Made by a program: the position numbers and the translations under genes. From Candidatus Latescibacterota bacterium (GTDB lineage: Bacteria > Latescibacterota > UBA2968 > GCA-2709665), in contig OZ241917.1 of the NCBI GenBank assembly GCA_965203805.1, positions 2,528,001 to 2,592,000 of the forward strand: a DNA stretch of 64,000 nt, written 5' to 3'. Position 1 is the stretch's first letter, and each line of letters opens with the position of its first letter. Positions 24,153-61,800 of the stretch are shown one piece after another. Under the pieces are notes generated by a model, which was not told the DNA's origin, searched no databases, and saw only the letters and a list, made by a program, of their open reading frames with translations.

Positions 24153-24473
24153 CACGCCTTTTGTGCTTTTTGTGGCCAATGTCTCTTCAACCTGATTAAC
24201 GCGTAAAGGCAGTTGCCACAAAAGGCCTGCCTGCAGCGCAGGGCACTGCGCAGGCAGGCACAAAAACACAAAAGAAAAACTCAACCCCGGAACTGCTAAA
24301 TGGACACGCACGACGCCAGTATTCGGTCTGAGTGGCGTCGGTCCTGCAAGTGCCGTTTATTACCAGGAGTTGACATTGTGTTGGCTCCGCTTTTCGGGAG
24401 AATGTGGCAAACTATGACGTGCTCCCGTGACACGTTCTTCACCTTCTGTGCCTTTTGTGCTTTTTGTGGCCAA
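24153..24473. repeat. Cluster of GCCACAAAA(G/A)GCACAAAA repeats, one carrying a 33-bp micro-palindrome (24226-24258)
   Basis: ttttgtgcttttgtggccaat near 24160 and 24453; inverse gccacaaaagg|cacaaaaacacaaaag split by cctgcctgcagcgcagggcactgcgcaggcagg. Confidence 0.75.
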
Positions 24474-25997: not shown

Positions 25998-26030
25998 CCT
26001 GCCTGCCGAGCAGGCTTCGGCGCAGGCAGG
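25998..26030. repeat. CCTGCCTG..CAGGCAGG micro-palindrome (33 bp)
   Basis: cctgcctgccgagcaggcttcggcgcaggcagg. Confidence 0.75.
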
Positions 26031-26261: not shown

Positions 26262-26357
26262 CCTGCCTGCGCAGTGCCCTGCCTGCCTGTGCGTGTACGC
26301 CTGCCTGCGCAGTGCCCTGCGCTGCAGGCAGGCACGCAGACAGGCGCTGCAGGCAGG
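26262..26357. repeat. Triple-nested micro-palindrome (33+30+33 bp)
   Basis: Outer 26262-26281/26345-26357, middle 26282-26299/26333-26344, inner 26300-26332; rejoined outer equals inner. Confidence 0.85.
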
Positions 26358-48300: not shown

Positions 48301-48680
48301 GGCCAATGCTCGAAGTGGGGCACGCGCGGACGATGAGCCCAAAGTGCGATGGATCCGTCGCAACAGATTTTCAAGAGGAGGATCGGCATGCGAGCGATAA
48401 TTCTGTTGATTTGCACAATTCAGGTTTTCTGTAGTACAATCAAAGCGCAGCATCCCGACCCGCATAGGTTTCAACAAAGAGGCTTCATCAATTGGAATTG
48501 GCGAAAAATGCTGGTTTTCGCAGACATACTACAATCATAAGCCGTATTTTTCCGTGGAGTCATTAGAGGGTATACAAGGTCAGGAGGTCCGCGTTGTCAC
48601 CTTTGATAATCCGAAATGCATGCGCGACGATCTTTCAGGTTTTGACACCGATGTTTCACAAATGCTGAATCATCGAATGA

Positions 48681-50583
48681 TGAGTCCACTCCGAAAAGTC
48701 GAGTTTACTTATTGGCAAAAAAGTACTAAATTCGAGGTATCGACAGGCTTCAGAGTCGCTGCCGTAGAATCGAAAAAAATGGCGAGGGCGATATGTTTAG
48801 AAGGAGTGCCCCTTCAAGTGCGCCGGATCTGTTTCGCAGTTTTGAGTCTCATCTCACAGGTCGGAAGCGGAACCGGCTCAATGATCCGTTGTGCTGGCAT
48901 AATCTGTTTTACGAGCACATCACGTCAAAGGTGGATGAGGATAACTTCCGTGTGGTGTATGCCGCTGACGTAGGGCGTCCTAATGCGCCGATTCGTCAGT
49001 TGGTGTCGATGATGATCATCAAGGAGGGTTTTGGGTGGAGCGATGCCCACCTTTTCGATCAATGTCGGTTCAACATCCTGGTGATGGGTGCATTGGGATT
49101 GGCGAATCTTACGGATGAAGTGCCTGTCGAGTCCACGTATTATCTGTTCAAGCAGGCGTTGTATTTGTATCAACTGGAGACCGGTCGCGACCTGATCGGC
49201 GAGACCTTTGCCAGCTTAACGAAGACGCAGGCCAAGGCCTTTGGTGTGTTGGGTCAGCAGATTCGAATGGACAGCCTGCCTGCGCCGGATACTCGGCAGG
49301 CAGGTAAGTTGATCGGCTCGAACATTGCGCTTTGTTGTCGGTTGCAGTTGGTGGTGGGTTGCGTACAAGGGTTCTGGAGGTCGTTGGACCAGGCCCAAAA
49401 ACAACGATCATCGGCAGCGGATCAGCAGGTTTTGGAGGCTCTGATCCAGGGGAAGCCTCATCAGGTTGTCTACGGTCTCACCAGTCGTGAAAAAGGCGAG
49501 AAGCTCCAGGAATTGGGGCTGTTATTGAGCAGGCTACAAGCGACCTATACCGAGAAGGACAGCGACCAATACGATCTGATCGTGCGTGTTTTTGGGGACC
49601 ACTATACGGTTTCATCTTCCCCCGAGGAGGTGCTGCCCAAGCCGCATGAAGCGATCTGTTCATCCTCGTTGCAGTCTGCCCATGATGAAGAGGCGGCCTT
49701 TCGCAAGAAAGGGAAGGACAAGGTGAAAGGGTATACGGTCAACCTCACCGAGACCTGTGATGAGGAGGGCCTCAATTTGATCACGGACGTTGACGTCAAA
49801 CCCGCGACGCGTCCCGACAATGCGTTTGTCCAAGGCGCCATACAGAGGACGCAACAGGTGGTGGGCGACGTCGTCGAAGTGTCAATGGATGGGGCCTATA
49901 ATGATCAATCCAACGCCGAGTATGCCGACGAAAACGACAAGCAATTCTTTTACAGTGGCCTGCAAGGAAAGCCAGGGCGTTTCCGTTATGAACGCACAGC
50001 AAAAGGCGTCACCGTCACCGATCAACAAACCGGAGAACTTCACATCGCCCAGGAATACAAACCGGGAAAATACAAAATCATCATCGATGGCAAAGCACGA
50101 TACTTTCAGGAACATCACATCGACACTTACCTCAGACGCAAACAGATGGAAGCCCTGCCTGACCCCATCAGAAAACGACCTGCCTGCGCCGAGTTCGCTG
50201 CCTCGCCTGCTTCAGCAGGCAGGTGCTCGGCAGGCAGGCGCAATAACGTCGAAGCCAGCATCTTCCAGTTGAGCTACTACACCAAAAATGGCAAGACGCG
50301 CTATCGCGGATACAGGCCACACCAACTGTGGGCGCGCTGTCGTGGCCTATGGGTCAACCTCGTTCGGATCCAAAACTACCTCACAACACCCTCGACGCTC
50401 CCCGCATAAGAGGGGCTTTCTTGTCCAAAACCCCCATACCACACACCCACAGCACCTTCACAGGTCGCCCCTGAGCCGGTACGCCCCACCTACACCGGAT
50501 CTCGTCGACACACACGAAATCACAAATTCCAACGCTGACCACTTACATCCGGCTCTCATTACCCCGTTTTCGGAGGGGACTCA
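48681..50583 (+). mobile_element. Complete IS (IS1182/IS5-like)
   Basis: IRs TGAGTCCACTCCGAAAA / TTTTCGGAGGGGACTCA; 4-bp ATGA target duplication at 48677-48680 and 50584-50587. Confidence 0.88.
48793..50409 (+). CDS. DDE transposase (DUF772-like N-terminus) with two in-frame palindrome inserts
   Basis: GRPNAP, RMDS, KGY, DGAY, RNNVEA, TRYRG. Confidence 0.88.
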   Translation: MFRRSAPSSAPDLFRSFESHLTGRKRNRLNDPLCWHNLFYEHITSKVDEDNFRVVYAADVGRPNAPIRQLVSMMIIKEGFGWSDAHLFDQCRFNILVMGALGLANLTDEVPVESTYYLFKQALYLYQLETGRDLIGETFASLTKTQAKAFGVLGQQIRMDSLPAPDTRQAGKLIGSNIALCCRLQLVVGCVQGFWRSLDQAQKQRSSAADQQVLEALIQGKPHQVVYGLTSREKGEKLQELGLLLSRLQATYTEKDSDQYDLIVRVFGDHYTVSSSPEEVLPKPHEAICSSSLQSAHDEEAAFRKKGKDKVKGYTVNLTETCDEEGLNLITDVDVKPATRPDNAFVQGAIQRTQQVVGDVVEVSMDGAYNDQSNAEYADENDKQFFYSGLQGKPGRFRYERTAKGVTVTDQQTGELHIAQEYKPGKYKIIIDGKARYFQEHHIDTYLRRKQMEALPDPIRKRPACAEFAASPASAGRCSAGRRNNVEASIFQLSYYTKNGKTRYRGYRPHQLWARCRGLWVNLVRIQNYLTTPSTLPA

Positions 50584-50836
50584 ATGATCAATTTGAGGAT
50601 ATCGAGTTGGTATTTGCAAACATACGTAAAAAGAGATGCAAAATTCGATGTCGACAACCTCCGTCCGAACGGAAAATACGAAGCCAGAGGCAAGTGCATT
50701 CAGTCAAAGACATACCCATCGAAAGGGATCGCGGTTGATTACGTTACTAACGGTCGAAGTATCACACATGTCTATCACACAATGGCACTGGCCGGGTGCG
50801 GAAGTGCCAAGTAGGGGAATCGTGCAAGTAACGTCA

Positions 50837-61189: not shown

Positions 61190-61800
61190 TGGGGTTTGAA
61201 ATCCCCCCACCGCATCAGCCGTCGCCGGCTCCTTAGTAAACTTTTCGGCCCTTCGACATTTCGACACCCTTCGACAAGCTCAGGGACCGAGCTCAATGCA
61301 GGCAAGCTCAATGACCACGCGTTGTCAGGCAATCTCCGATTTCGCTCAGAATAACAGGCCGACCGACCGCCAAACCTGTCATCCTGAGGAAGCCGTCCAG
61401 CCTGCCGGCGGTTCATCGGCAGGCTGGCTGACGAAGGATCTACTGCAGCATCGCTTAAACCCGAGCGTGTTCTGTCATTCGCGGAGAGTTGGTAGGCGGC
61501 ACGTTTGCGCCTACACGGTCAGGCTGAGCCGGCGCCACGGAAACCATGCCTCCGCGCAAAGGTTTGTATTCAAAAGGCTTCCGCTACACGTCCCGTCGAG
61601 AAGACGGGAGATTCTTCGACTCCGCTCAGAATGACATGCGTCGTAATAACCAAAAGCGAGATGTTTCGGTCATGCCCTGGCCAAACTGTGACGAAGACGT
61701 TTCGAAGGTGGGGCCTGCCTGCCTGCCAAAGCGTGGCTGGCAGGCGCAGGCAGGCGCTCCGCTGCGCAGGCAGGCGACTCCCCCTCAAGGGGGAGTGATC
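61190..61800. repeat. Pile-up of short palindromic repeats
   Basis: CTTCGAC..GCTCA units, GTCATCCTGAG..CTCAGAATGAC pair, CCTGCC..GGCAGG inserts at 61401-61423 and 61714-61774. Confidence 0.65.

What the first reader, a model, noticed from the sequence alone, without database searches (positions are those of the whole stretch)
49275..50238. Two in-frame micro-palindrome insertions inside one transposase gene
Seen: a 30-bp insert at 49275-49304 turns RMDS-KLIGS into RMDS-LPAPDTRQAG-KLIGS. A 60-bp, apparently nested insert at 50179-50238 turns RKR-RNNVEA into RKR-PACAEFAASPASAGRCSAGR-RNNVEA. Both are multiples of 3 and stop-free. Established: RxDS and RxxVE carry DDE catalytic residues in IS5/IS1182-type enzymes, and Rickettsia palindromic elements give precedent for in-frame repeat insertion. 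Inference: the element adds peptide to proteins. Both hits lie next to catalytic residues, so they may silence the IS while leaving the ORF open.
Basis: partly seen in the sequence, partly recalled or inferred. Interest (0 to 1): 0.72.

Follow-up and report, generated by a model that had tools for sequence, protein, structure and literature searches.

The report
Hairpin repeats inserted inside transposase gene
Two short hairpin-forming DNA repeats from a genome-wide family have landed, in frame, inside the enzyme gene of a jumping element in a Latescibacterota bacterium; such events are known from other bacteria, so this is a new example, not a new phenomenon.

Summary
The 30 bp at 49275-49304 and the 60 bp at 50179-50238 are true insertions in the transposase gene (48793-50409) of a complete IS (48681-50583, 4-bp target duplication ATGA). 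Site 2 is empty in all 9 paralogous copies that cover it. It is also empty in 109 of 109 database homologues and in a roughly 99%-identical contig from another sample. Site 1 is empty in 8 paralogues. One 93%-identical copy holds a different 33-bp family member at the same nucleotide.

Both inserts belong to a REP-like family of imperfect palindromes (CCTGCCTG...CAGGCAGG; 157 independent sites). The family is mostly intergenic, often nested, makes no target duplication and is shared with related genomes. The 60-mer is a 27-mer sitting in the loop of a 33-mer.

Staying in frame needs no special mechanism. The main units are 27, 30, 33 or 36 nt, and only 4.5% of their reading frames hold a stop.

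The inserts do lie beside the catalytic residues D160 and E487. "Silencing" is not supported: dN/dS is 0.45, and another IS here with three such inserts has five identical copies. The mobilising enzyme is not identified; I infer a RAYT-type tyrosine transposase. This is a new member of a known kind.

The parts
48677..48680 (.). Left copy of the 4-bp target-site duplication ATGA of the IS
   Evidence: Alignment of the IS ends of 9 copies; each copy has its own 4-bp duplication; sequence
48681..50583 (+). Complete IS element (1903 bp) of the IS5/IS1182 superfamily. Terminal inverted repeats are about 48681-48698 (TGAGTCCACTCCGAAAAG) and about 50566-50583.
   Evidence: Ends defined by the seven identical paralogues plus c93; 9 further full or partial copies in the genome
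48793..50409 (+). Transposase ORF, 538 aa (508 aa without the two inserts). Catalytic codons: D160 = 49270-49272, D366 = 49888-49890, E487 = 50251-50253.
   Evidence: ORF list; Pfam DUF772; NCBIfam IS1182 at 79 bits, below the 270 cut-off, but spanning profile positions 34-485; invariant columns R158 M159 D160 S161, D366 and R482 R483 N485 E487 in 67 sequences; top Foldseek rows are DDE transposases (Tn5, piggyBat, ISCth4) but none at E <= 0.001
49275..49304 (-). Site-1 insert: a 30-nt imperfect palindrome (30-mer subfamily; CG bulge on the left arm as read on the + strand). It encodes LPAPDTRQAG and interrupts strand beta-1 two residues after D160. There is no target duplication; the boundary is ambiguous by 1 nt.
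   Evidence: Gap in 8 paralogues; a 34-nt match at 97% at genome 689668-689701; hairpin -10.5 kcal/mol. Beta-1 is residues 156-167 in the insert-free model, against 156-163 with pLDDT < 50 for 163-177 in the window protein.
50179..50238 (-). Site-2 insert: a 60-nt compound. The outer 33-mer is 50179-50196 + 50224-50238, and a 27-nt unit (50197-50223) sits in its loop. It encodes PACAEFAASPASAGRCSAGR, lies between the invariant R482 and R483 codons (numbering of the 538-aa protein), and makes no target duplication.
   Evidence: Gap of exactly 60 in 9 paralogous copies; contigs of runs X4 and X5 skip 50179-50238; a 62-nt match at 98% in a TolC-like gene at genome 2599399-2599460; the outer arms join to the 33-mer seen next to RAYT-1; hairpin -21.9 kcal/mol; pLDDT < 50 for residues 463-484
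50584..50587 (.). Right copy of the target-site duplication ATGA

Best explanation
The two segments are copies of a mobile, REP-like family of GC-rich imperfect palindromes that landed inside the transposase gene of an IS5/IS1182-type insertion sequence.

The units share an 8-bp outer stem (CCTGCCTG/CAGGCAGG), a 2-nt CG bulge, a variable 5-bp inner stem and a loop of about 5 nt. Unit lengths are 27, 30, 33 and 36 nt.

Shown:
- They are insertions without target duplication.
- Near-identical copies lie elsewhere in this genome and in related genomes.
- Units nest into the loops of other units.
- The family is strongly depleted from coding sequence.
- The site-2 insertion is recent.

Inferred:
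- Copies move as single-stranded hairpins through a HUH tyrosine transposase of the RAYT type; two such genes are in the genome. My odds for this step are about 0.5.
- They stay in frame simply because the common units are multiples of three and almost free of stop codons in all six frames.
- They survive inside transposase genes because those genes are dispensable to the host, whereas hits in cellular genes are purged.

The effect on this transposase is unknown. Site 1 is structurally harsh (mid beta-1) yet recurs in several evolving IS lineages. Site 2 is too recent to judge.
For: Insertion status:
- Paralogues, homologues and contigs with empty sites.

Family:
- 223 termini pairs reduce to 157 independent sites, with length modes at 33 (45 sites), 31 (21) and 30 (10).
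- 39 of 157 sites lie in predicted CDS, against 82% coding coverage. Several of the 39 sit at over-extended predicted starts.
- The inner stem pairs in 91 of 105 cells against 70% with shuffled partners, and shows compensatory types CCGAG/CTCGG, CAGCG/CGCTG and TGCGT/ACGCA.
- No duplication is visible at about 10 empty/filled junctions.
- Nesting: the 60-mer is 33 + 27; P0013 has a 33-nt unit inside a 27-nt unit.

Spread:
- 22 of 41 related genomes hold at least one copy, up to 133.

RAYT:
- A 201-aa ORF scores 104 bits on NCBIfam REP_Tyr_transpos (cut-off 80).
- Within the family-level group, the 6 genomes with this RAYT type hold 15-148 copies. The 16 without it hold a median of 2 (Mann-Whitney p = 0.0014; kin are not independent).

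Frame neutrality:
- Stops occur in 23 of 510 element frames, against 19.9% of frames in random 33-mers.

Other confident in-frame hits are mostly in transposases:
- DDE_Tnp_1_4, two genes.
- An IS21-like gene.
- DDE_3.
- An IS5-type gene.
Against: - The RAYT link is weak. The conserved flanks of RAYT-1 in five genomes are a different palindrome, GAGGGCAGG(G)ATGCCCTC. The single 33-mer next to it in this genome is itself an insertion, absent from the orthologous locus L022.
- One complete genome (G015) has 125 copies and no RAYT hit above 47 bits.
- The asymmetric 33-mers show no replication-strand bias: 26+/14- on one replichore and 11+/8- on the other.
- I saw no conserved flanking tetranucleotide (GTAG or CGTC) and no shared target motif.
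- Different subfamily members occupy the same nucleotide. Site 1 holds a 30-mer here and a 33-mer in c93. The TolC-like gene holds the 60-mer here and a 30-mer in G007. This fits a hot spot or conversion between copies as well as it fits transposition.
- My gene calls are a crude in-house ORF scorer, so the CDS fraction is approximate.
Confidence: 0.75

Rival explanations
1. One reading: the inserts are functional knock-outs. Because they sit next to D160 and E487, they silence the IS while leaving its ORF open.
For: - Site 1 lies in the middle of catalytic strand beta-1 (156-167 in the insert-free model). In the window protein the conserved KLIGSN segment falls to pLDDT < 50.
- Site 2 separates two invariant arginines.
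- The insert-free paralogue has 7 identical copies. Each insert-bearing variant has one.
- 2 of 9 insert sites in this IS family lie within 5 residues of a catalytic residue, and 3 of 13 when the IS5-type element is added (p = 0.11 and 0.065).
Against: - The window copy and c93 both carry a site-1 element, sit at different loci, and have intact ends and their own 4-bp duplications.
- dN/dS between them is 0.45 (36.5 synonymous of 96 changes; binomial p = 0.0006 against neutrality).
- Site-1 carriers occur in two separate, diversified clades with open ORFs.
- The IS5-type element carries a 36-nt insert directly before its catalytic E, plus two more inserts. It has 5 identical copies, each with its own duplication, and no insert-free helper.
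- An open ORF is expected without selection, because the units are 3n and stop-poor.
- Mobilisation in trans cannot be excluded. The first 22 nt of the left end are identical in the insert-free 7-copy paralogue.
Confidence: 0.2
2. The copies spread not by a transposase but by gene conversion or template switching between family members. The conserved 8- to 13-nt arms serve as microhomology, and recombination among IS copies also plays a part.
For: - The IS copies are mosaics. The window copy groups with L001 at both ends and with c93 in the centre, about 48.94-49.88 kb.
- The same site holds different subfamily loops between identical arms.
- The insert pattern is patchy on the protein tree.
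- A conversion origin of REPs is an old proposal. I saw it only as a reference title in PMC3733652.
Against: Conversion can exchange or homogenise existing copies. It does not explain first arrival at sites with no prior homology, such as site 2, which is empty in every other copy and homologue. It also does not explain identical units at about 150 unrelated loci.
Confidence: 0.15
3. The units are ultra-short MITEs moved by a DDE transposase that recognises CCTGCCTG/CAGGCAGG as terminal inverted repeats.
For: - The termini are conserved while the interior varies.
- The genome is rich in DDE IS elements.
Against: - No target-site duplication at any of about 10 junctions with a known empty site. 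The IS elements of this genome make 4-bp duplications.
- No IS with these termini was seen flanking a transposase gene. 7 genes are flanked by units on both sides and none is an obvious cognate transposase.
Confidence: 0.05
4. The segments are native variable loops of the protein, or assembly errors.
For: None beyond their low-confidence, loop-like appearance in the model.
Against: - Exact DNA copies lie elsewhere.
- The segments are absent from 109 of 109 (site 2) and 107 of 109 (site 1) homologues.
- Contigs from two samples confirm the window sequence, and a third carries the empty site.
Confidence: 0.01

Closest known systems
REP / BIME / REPIN elements with RAYT (TnpA_REP) tyrosine transposases of Proteobacteria (Nunvar 2010, PMC2817692; Bertels & Rainey 2011, PMC3116915; both seen only as search listing and start of abstract)
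   Same: - Short GC-rich imperfect palindromes in more than 100 copies.
- Mostly intergenic.
- Clustered or mosaic arrangements.
- No target duplication.
- RAYT genes are present in the genome, and copy number goes with one RAYT type across relatives.
   Different: - The RAYT genes here are not flanked by this family; their conserved flanks are another palindrome.
- There is no GTAG tag.
- Units nest into each other's loops rather than forming REPIN doublets.
- A sizeable minority lie inside ORFs.
Intragenic GTAG- and CGTC-tagged REPs (Di Nocera et al. 2013, PMC3733652; passages read)
   Same: - REPs lie wholly inside ORFs of known proteins, sometimes twice per gene. Single units or dimers encode 10-30 residues.
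- CGTC REPs have 8- to 9-bp stems and 4- to 5-nt loops, and 'apparently lack a dedicated transposase'.
- The authors argue that such inserts may be neutral loop additions.
   Different: - That paper stresses replication and repair genes. Here the confident intragenic hits are mostly in IS transposase genes.
- No GTAG or CGTC tag was seen here.
- Its supplementary table of intragenic REPs (.xls) was not opened.
Rickettsia palindromic elements, RPE (Ogata 2002 and Claverie & Ogata 2003; seen only as citations inside PMC3733652; details recalled)
   Same: Palindromic repeats inserted in frame in protein-coding genes, adding a peptide without destroying the ORF.
   Different: - RPE-1 is about 100-150 bp (recalled), against 27-60 bp here.
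- The phylum and sequence differ.
- The RPE hosts are mostly cellular genes.
Very small dispersed repeats (SDR) of cyanobacteria (Elhai et al. 2008; recalled. The paper itself did not appear in my search.)
   Same: Imperfect palindromes of 21-27 nt that are mobile and nest into one another and into other repeats (recalled).
   Different: The sequence and lineage differ, and no enzyme is known there either. I could not check details.
IS200/IS605 'peel and paste' single-strand transposition (recalled; Quentin 2018, PMC6006769, seen as listing only)
   Same: Hairpin-defined ends and insertion without target duplication.
   Different: - No conserved target tetranucleotide was seen.
- No lagging-strand orientation bias was found.
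- The units carry no gene.

Membership tests
REP/REPIN-RAYT system | Short (20-40 nt) imperfect palindrome in high copy number | tested here: met
   157 independent sites with a mode of 33 nt; hairpin z-scores of -3.2 and -3.6; inner stem paired in 91 of 105 cells
REP/REPIN-RAYT system | Predominantly extragenic | tested here: met
   39 of 157 sites in predicted CDS against 82% coverage; in-house gene caller, so approximate
REP/REPIN-RAYT system | A RAYT gene in the same genome | tested here: met
   Two Y1_Tnp hits. The 201-aa ORF scores 104 bits against a cut-off of 80 on NF047646. The second hit scores 91.6 bits.
REP/REPIN-RAYT system | The RAYT gene is flanked by the same REP family | tested here: not met
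   RAYT-1 orthologues in five genomes are flanked by GAGGGCAGG(G)ATGCCCTC. The single CCTGCCTG 33-mer 3' of it in this genome is absent from L022. The 27-mer at RAYT-2 is absent from 4 orthologues.
REP/REPIN-RAYT system | Conserved GTAG (or CGTC) tag at one end | tested here: not met
   Flanks of 133 simple copies listed in one orientation show no conserved tetranucleotide. This was by inspection; I computed no logo.
Rickettsia palindromic elements (RPE) | In-frame insertion into ORFs that stay open | tested here: met
Rickettsia palindromic elements (RPE) | Sequence or size class of RPE-1 to RPE-8 (size recalled) | not tested
   No RPE sequence was compared. The units here are 27-60 nt and come from another phylum.
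MITE (non-autonomous DDE element) | Terminal inverted repeats plus a target-site duplication | tested here: not met
   No duplication at about 10 junctions with known empty sites
IS200/IS605-type single-strand transposition | Orientation bias with respect to replication, and a fixed target tetranucleotide | tested here: not met
   26+/14- against 11+/8- on the two replichores. No shared flank was seen. The sample is small (59), so the result is weak.
IS1182 family (host element) | Transposase reaches the curated NCBIfam score | tested here: not met
   79 bits against a cut-off of 270, although the match spans profile positions 34-485. I file it as the IS5/IS1182 superfamily, not as IS1182 proper.
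IS1182 family (host element) | DDE triad, N-terminal DUF772 domain, terminal inverted repeats and a target duplication | tested here: met
   D160, D366 and E487 invariant or nearly so; DUF772; inverted repeats and 4-bp duplications in 9 copies; some homologues carry PF01609 or PF13751

The most novel reading that the evidence does not exclude
The micro-palindromes may be reversible cassettes. A hairpin-specific enzyme would insert them, exchange them and precisely excise them at preferred sites. Their accumulation in transposase genes, including positions beside catalytic residues, would then act as a toggling brake on insertion sequences.

This reading would explain three observations:
- Different family members occupy the same nucleotide.
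- Insert-free sisters nest among insert-bearing copies.
- A frameshifted IS5-type element still reached five identical copies.
Probability: 0.1. Interest if true: 0.8.

Novelty: new member of a known kind. Interest (0 to 1): 0.42.

Why it matters
The finding documents a previously undescribed REP-like repeat family in Latescibacterota. The runs that hold this DNA include sponge and coral metagenomes.

Within this genome, the intragenic survivors of the family are mainly in the transposase genes of other mobile elements. That is a clean natural example of selection shaping where selfish DNA persists. It also gives a set of natural 9- to 20-residue insertions at defined places in DDE transposases, including mid beta-1 and just before the catalytic E helix, whose tolerance could be measured.

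For annotation, these hairpin-coded peptides (LPA..QAG, PAC..AGR/ADR, ACL..RQA) can be recognised and masked.

The finding does not establish a new mechanism. Intragenic REPs and RPEs are already in print.

Tried and rejected
- Replication-strand bias of asymmetric 33-mers: none found (26+/14- against 11+/8-, n = 59).
- Enrichment of 3n lengths among in-CDS copies: 25 of 39 against 54 of 118 intergenic (Fisher p = 0.064). The test is partly circular, because an open ORF requires 3n, and the lengths were measured between termini.
- Search for a gene bracketed by units on both sides as a candidate cognate enzyme: 7 genes, none an obvious transposase. One is a DUF559 endonuclease-like protein between two identical 33-mers.
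- Target motif: I saw none by eye in about 10 empty/filled pairs. I computed no logo and did not analyse orthologous empty sites across relatives.
- Rfam, whole window: 0 matches at gathering score.
- Foldseek of the insert-free model against the PDB: no hit at E <= 0.001. The top rows are piggyBat, Tn5 and ISCth4 transposases at E 0.007-0.03, so the fold assignment rests on motifs and family profiles.
- Earlier notes of this scan on this genome: none.
The RNA runs listed held only 5-6% of the sampled words, and the single read-laying run went to four other runs, whose kind is not on record.
- Run X5 at site 1: a contig starts 6 nt before 49304. This is ambiguous between an empty site and another variant.
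- A first script for the IS ends failed on register and was redone with an alignment.
- In one search, three of the seven TolC loci were in the wrong orientation and were ignored. The statement rests on L050, L053 and L054.
Full report
**What is at the coordinates**

The window lies at 2528001-2592000 of a single-contig genome of 5.87 Mb and 59% G+C. Its closest public relatives are titled Candidatus Latescibacterota MAGs.

ORF 48793..50409 (+, 538 aa) is the transposase of a complete insertion sequence, 48681-50583. The IS has terminal inverted repeats and a 4-bp target duplication ATGA.

- Pfam finds only the N-terminal DUF772 domain.
- NCBIfam aligns the protein to the IS1182 model over profile positions 34-485, but at 79 bits against a cut-off of 270.
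- Some homologues carry precomputed PF01609 or PF13751.

I therefore call it an IS5/IS1182-superfamily DDE transposase, not IS1182 proper.

In an alignment of 67 sequences, R158 M159 D160 S161 and R482 R483 N485 E487 are invariant, and D366 is nearly so. That the RMDS and RRNNVE motifs carry the first D and the E of the triad is inferred from this invariance. It also rests on the recalled DDE/YREK signature of IS4/IS5 enzymes. Foldseek gave only weak rows to Tn5, piggyBat and ISCth4 transposases (E 0.007-0.03).

BLASTN against the genome finds these other copies:

- one at 93% identity ('c93', genome 1518214-1520027);
- seven identical ones at 79.6%;
- a truncated one ('d1');
- a partial one.

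All nine copies that cover site 2 break at query positions 1480 and 1540, so they lack exactly 50179-50238. Seven copies plus d1 lack 49275-49304. c93 instead has a 33-bp unit at the same nucleotide and in the same orientation.

None of 15 loci from other genomes has either insert. These include two loci at 45-48% identity from a Deltaproteobacteria MAG and a Bacteroidota MAG.

Of 109 full-length database homologues, 0 have the site-2 peptide and 2 (P0005, P0011) have LPAPDARQAG at site 1. The best hit, P0001, is 508 aa and 96% identical over aligned columns.

Contigs of two samples reproduce the window sequence over both sites. A contig from another study, differing at 9 of about 750 positions, joins 50178 to 50239. 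The site-2 insertion is therefore real and recent.

**What the inserts are**

They belong to a family with conserved ends and a variable centre.

- The genome holds 177 CCTGCCTG...CAGGCAGG pairs within 100 nt.
- Allowing the variant ends CCTGTCTG/CAGACAGG, 223 pairs reduce to 157 sites with distinct flanks. The commonest lengths are 33, 31, 30, 37 and 27 nt.
- The typical 33-mer has an 8-bp outer stem, a CG bulge on one arm, a 5-bp inner stem and a 5-nt loop.
- Inner stems differ between subfamilies in a compensatory way. 91 of 105 cells pair, against 70% with shuffled partners.
- Many copies sit in mosaic clusters with other palindromes (CCCCCTCTCC..GGAGAGGGGG; GGCAGACA..TGTCTGCC) or inside one another.
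- The 60-mer of the finding is the exact 33-mer CCTGCCTGCGCCGAGTTC|TGCTCGGCAGGCAGG with a 27-nt unit in its loop.
- The same compound, with one difference, lies in a TolC-like gene at genome 2599399-2599460.
- The 30-mer has a one-mismatch twin at genome 689671 and occurs in other genomes.
- No junction with a known empty site shows a target duplication.
- The family is present in 22 of 41 related genomes, from 1 to 133 copies.

**Genomic distribution**

I used a crude in-house gene caller: 3893 ORFs covering 82% of the genome. With it, 39 of 157 sites fall in predicted CDS. Inspection sorts these 39 as follows:

- About nine lie within 60 nt of a probably over-extended start.
- About three are chance matches without a hairpin.
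- About ten lie in low-complexity N-terminal extensions that are likely leaders.

The confident internal, in-frame cases are mostly in transposase genes:

- this IS and c93;
- a DDE_Tnp_1_4 gene, with 33- and 21-nt inserts absent from two paralogues;
- an IS21-like gene (27 nt);
- an IS5-type gene.

A 20-nt copy appears to frameshift another DDE_Tnp_1_4 gene.

Cellular examples also exist:

- The TolC-like gene carries the 60-nt unit here. It has nothing in the G002 and G003 orthologues, and a different 30-mer at about the same place in G007.
- A 662-aa protein carries one.
- A methylase-RAYT fusion carries one.

In public homologues of this IS family, palindrome-coded peptides of 9, 10, 11 or 20 residues occur at eight internal positions, and a 21-residue insert of unclear origin at a ninth. 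That database holds only called ORFs, so it is biased towards in-frame events.

**Why the inserts are in frame and stop-free**

The dominant units are 27, 30, 33 and 36 nt. Only 23 of 510 reading frames of 85 distinct units contain a stop, against 19.9% of frames in random genomic 33-mers.

So a hit in any frame or orientation usually leaves an ORF open. The two copies in the finding need no special explanation.

Non-3n units (19 and 20 nt) also occur in genes and do shift the frame. In-CDS copies are only weakly enriched for 3n lengths (25 of 39 against 54 of 118, p = 0.064).

**Who moves them**

The genome has two RAYT-type genes. Across the family-level group, the six genomes with the RAYT-1 type hold 15-148 units. 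The sixteen without it hold a median of 2, with one exception at 125. Relatedness inflates this test.

However, RAYT-1 is flanked in five genomes by another palindrome. The 33-mer beside it here is a lineage-specific insertion into that palindrome's loop. The asymmetric 33-mers show no replication-strand bias. I saw no tag or target motif.

A RAYT/HUH mechanism is thus an inference from four things: the resemblance to REPs, the absence of duplications, the preference for hairpin loops, and the copy-number association. I put it at about even odds.

Conversion between copies probably also contributes. The IS copies are mosaics, and the same sites hold different subfamily loops.

**Does it silence the IS?**

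Structure. In the insert-free model (pLDDT 83), strand beta-1 spans residues 156-167 with D160 in the middle, so site 1 cuts that strand. In the window protein (pLDDT 78), residues 163-177 and 463-484 fall below pLDDT 50. Site 2 separates the invariant arginines just before the helix that carries E487. The insert ends in an arginine codon, so the local RRNNVE string is recreated.

Evolutionary evidence points the other way for site 1:

- The window copy and c93 each have intact ends and their own duplication.
- Both have open ORFs despite 7% divergence.
- Their dN/dS is 0.45, below 1 at p = 0.0006.
- Site-1 carriers occur in two separate clades of the protein tree.

There are caveats. The insert-free 7-copy paralogue shares the first 22 nt of the left end and could act in trans. 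Recombination also blurs when the substitutions happened.

The IS5-type element is the strongest counter-example to a general silencing rule. Relative to orthologues in G002 and G013, it carries a 27-nt, a 19-nt (frameshifting) and a 36-nt unit. The 36-nt unit lies directly before the E of its EHPFG motif. Yet it has five 100%-identical copies, each with its own duplication. No other related copy is found at E <= 0.001.

How that element spread is unexplained. Recoding, reversible excision and later homogenisation are all open.

**Comparison with what is known**

Intragenic REPs are in print. Di Nocera et al. 2013 (PMC3733652; passages read) report the following:

- GTAG and CGTC REPs lie inside ORFs of known proteins. 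More than half are dimers or groups encoding 20-30 residues.
- CGTC REPs lack a dedicated transposase.
- Such inserts may be neutral.

That paper cites the Rickettsia RPE work for in-frame palindromes. Earlier notes of this scan describe in-frame REPs in CPR bacteria and Acidobacteriota. They are unchecked notes and I did not test them.

The present case therefore adds a new lineage and family. It has some unusual traits: heavy nesting, transposase genes as the main intragenic sink, and repeated use of the same sites. It is not a new kind of element.

My searches for prior description in Latescibacteria or sponge symbionts found nothing relevant. Subscription papers and the supplementary table of PMC3733652 were not seen.

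Noticed in passing
window 24246-24258, 26018-26030, 26262-26312, 61742-61774: Six further matches to the family seed (up to 1 mismatch) elsewhere in the window. Two pairs lie 20-40 nt apart, so they are likely clustered or nested units. Their context was not examined.
   Followed up: no
G000:C1:4546977-4550684 (L045); also L025, L026, L027: A 1235-aa ORF combines DUF1156, a D12-type DNA methyltransferase and a complete RAYT (Y1_Tnp) domain in one frame. The same fusion occurs in three other genomes. One of them (G016) has two RAYT domains in a 1441-aa frame, the second bracketed by the translated GAGGGCAGGATGCCCTC palindrome (RGQDALD). This genome alone has an extra 27-nt unit (PACALHADR) at the junction.
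   Followed up: partly
G000:C1:1308656-1309965 and four identical copies (L028, L035-L037): An IS5-type element of 1310 bp carries three palindrome insertions, one of them a 19-nt frameshifter. It is present in five 100%-identical copies, each with its own target duplication, and there is no intact copy in the genome.
   Followed up: partly
G000:C1:3.24-3.47 Mb: A region dense in repeats. About 35 near-identical 31-nt units (CCTGCCTGCCGAAAAACCACCGCCAGGCAGG) are embedded in a longer repeat together with CCCCCTCTCC..GGAGAGGGGG palindromes. All are intergenic by my gene calls.
   Followed up: no
G000:C1:2599399-2599460 (L041, L049): A TolC-like outer-membrane efflux gene (Pfam OEP) carries the same 60-nt compound in frame just after its predicted signal peptide. 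The orthologues in G002 and G003 lack it. G007 has a different 30-nt unit at about the same place.
   Followed up: yes
G000:C1:3336187-3336648 (L046): A DUF559 endonuclease-like gene is bracketed by two identical 33-mers, at 3336025 and 3336745.
   Followed up: no
window 48681-50583 compared with c93 and L001: The IS copy is a mosaic. Its ends are closest to L001, from another genome. Its centre (about 48.94-49.88 kb, including site 1) is closest to c93. This implies recombination among IS copies.
   Followed up: partly
L008 1757-1784; L012 2381-2411: In other Latescibacterota genomes the same IS family carries a 27-nt unit (LPVRRTQTG) and a 30-nt unit (LSAEHPAQAG) at other in-frame positions. 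L012 also has an 11-bp deletion that breaks the ORF.
   Followed up: yes
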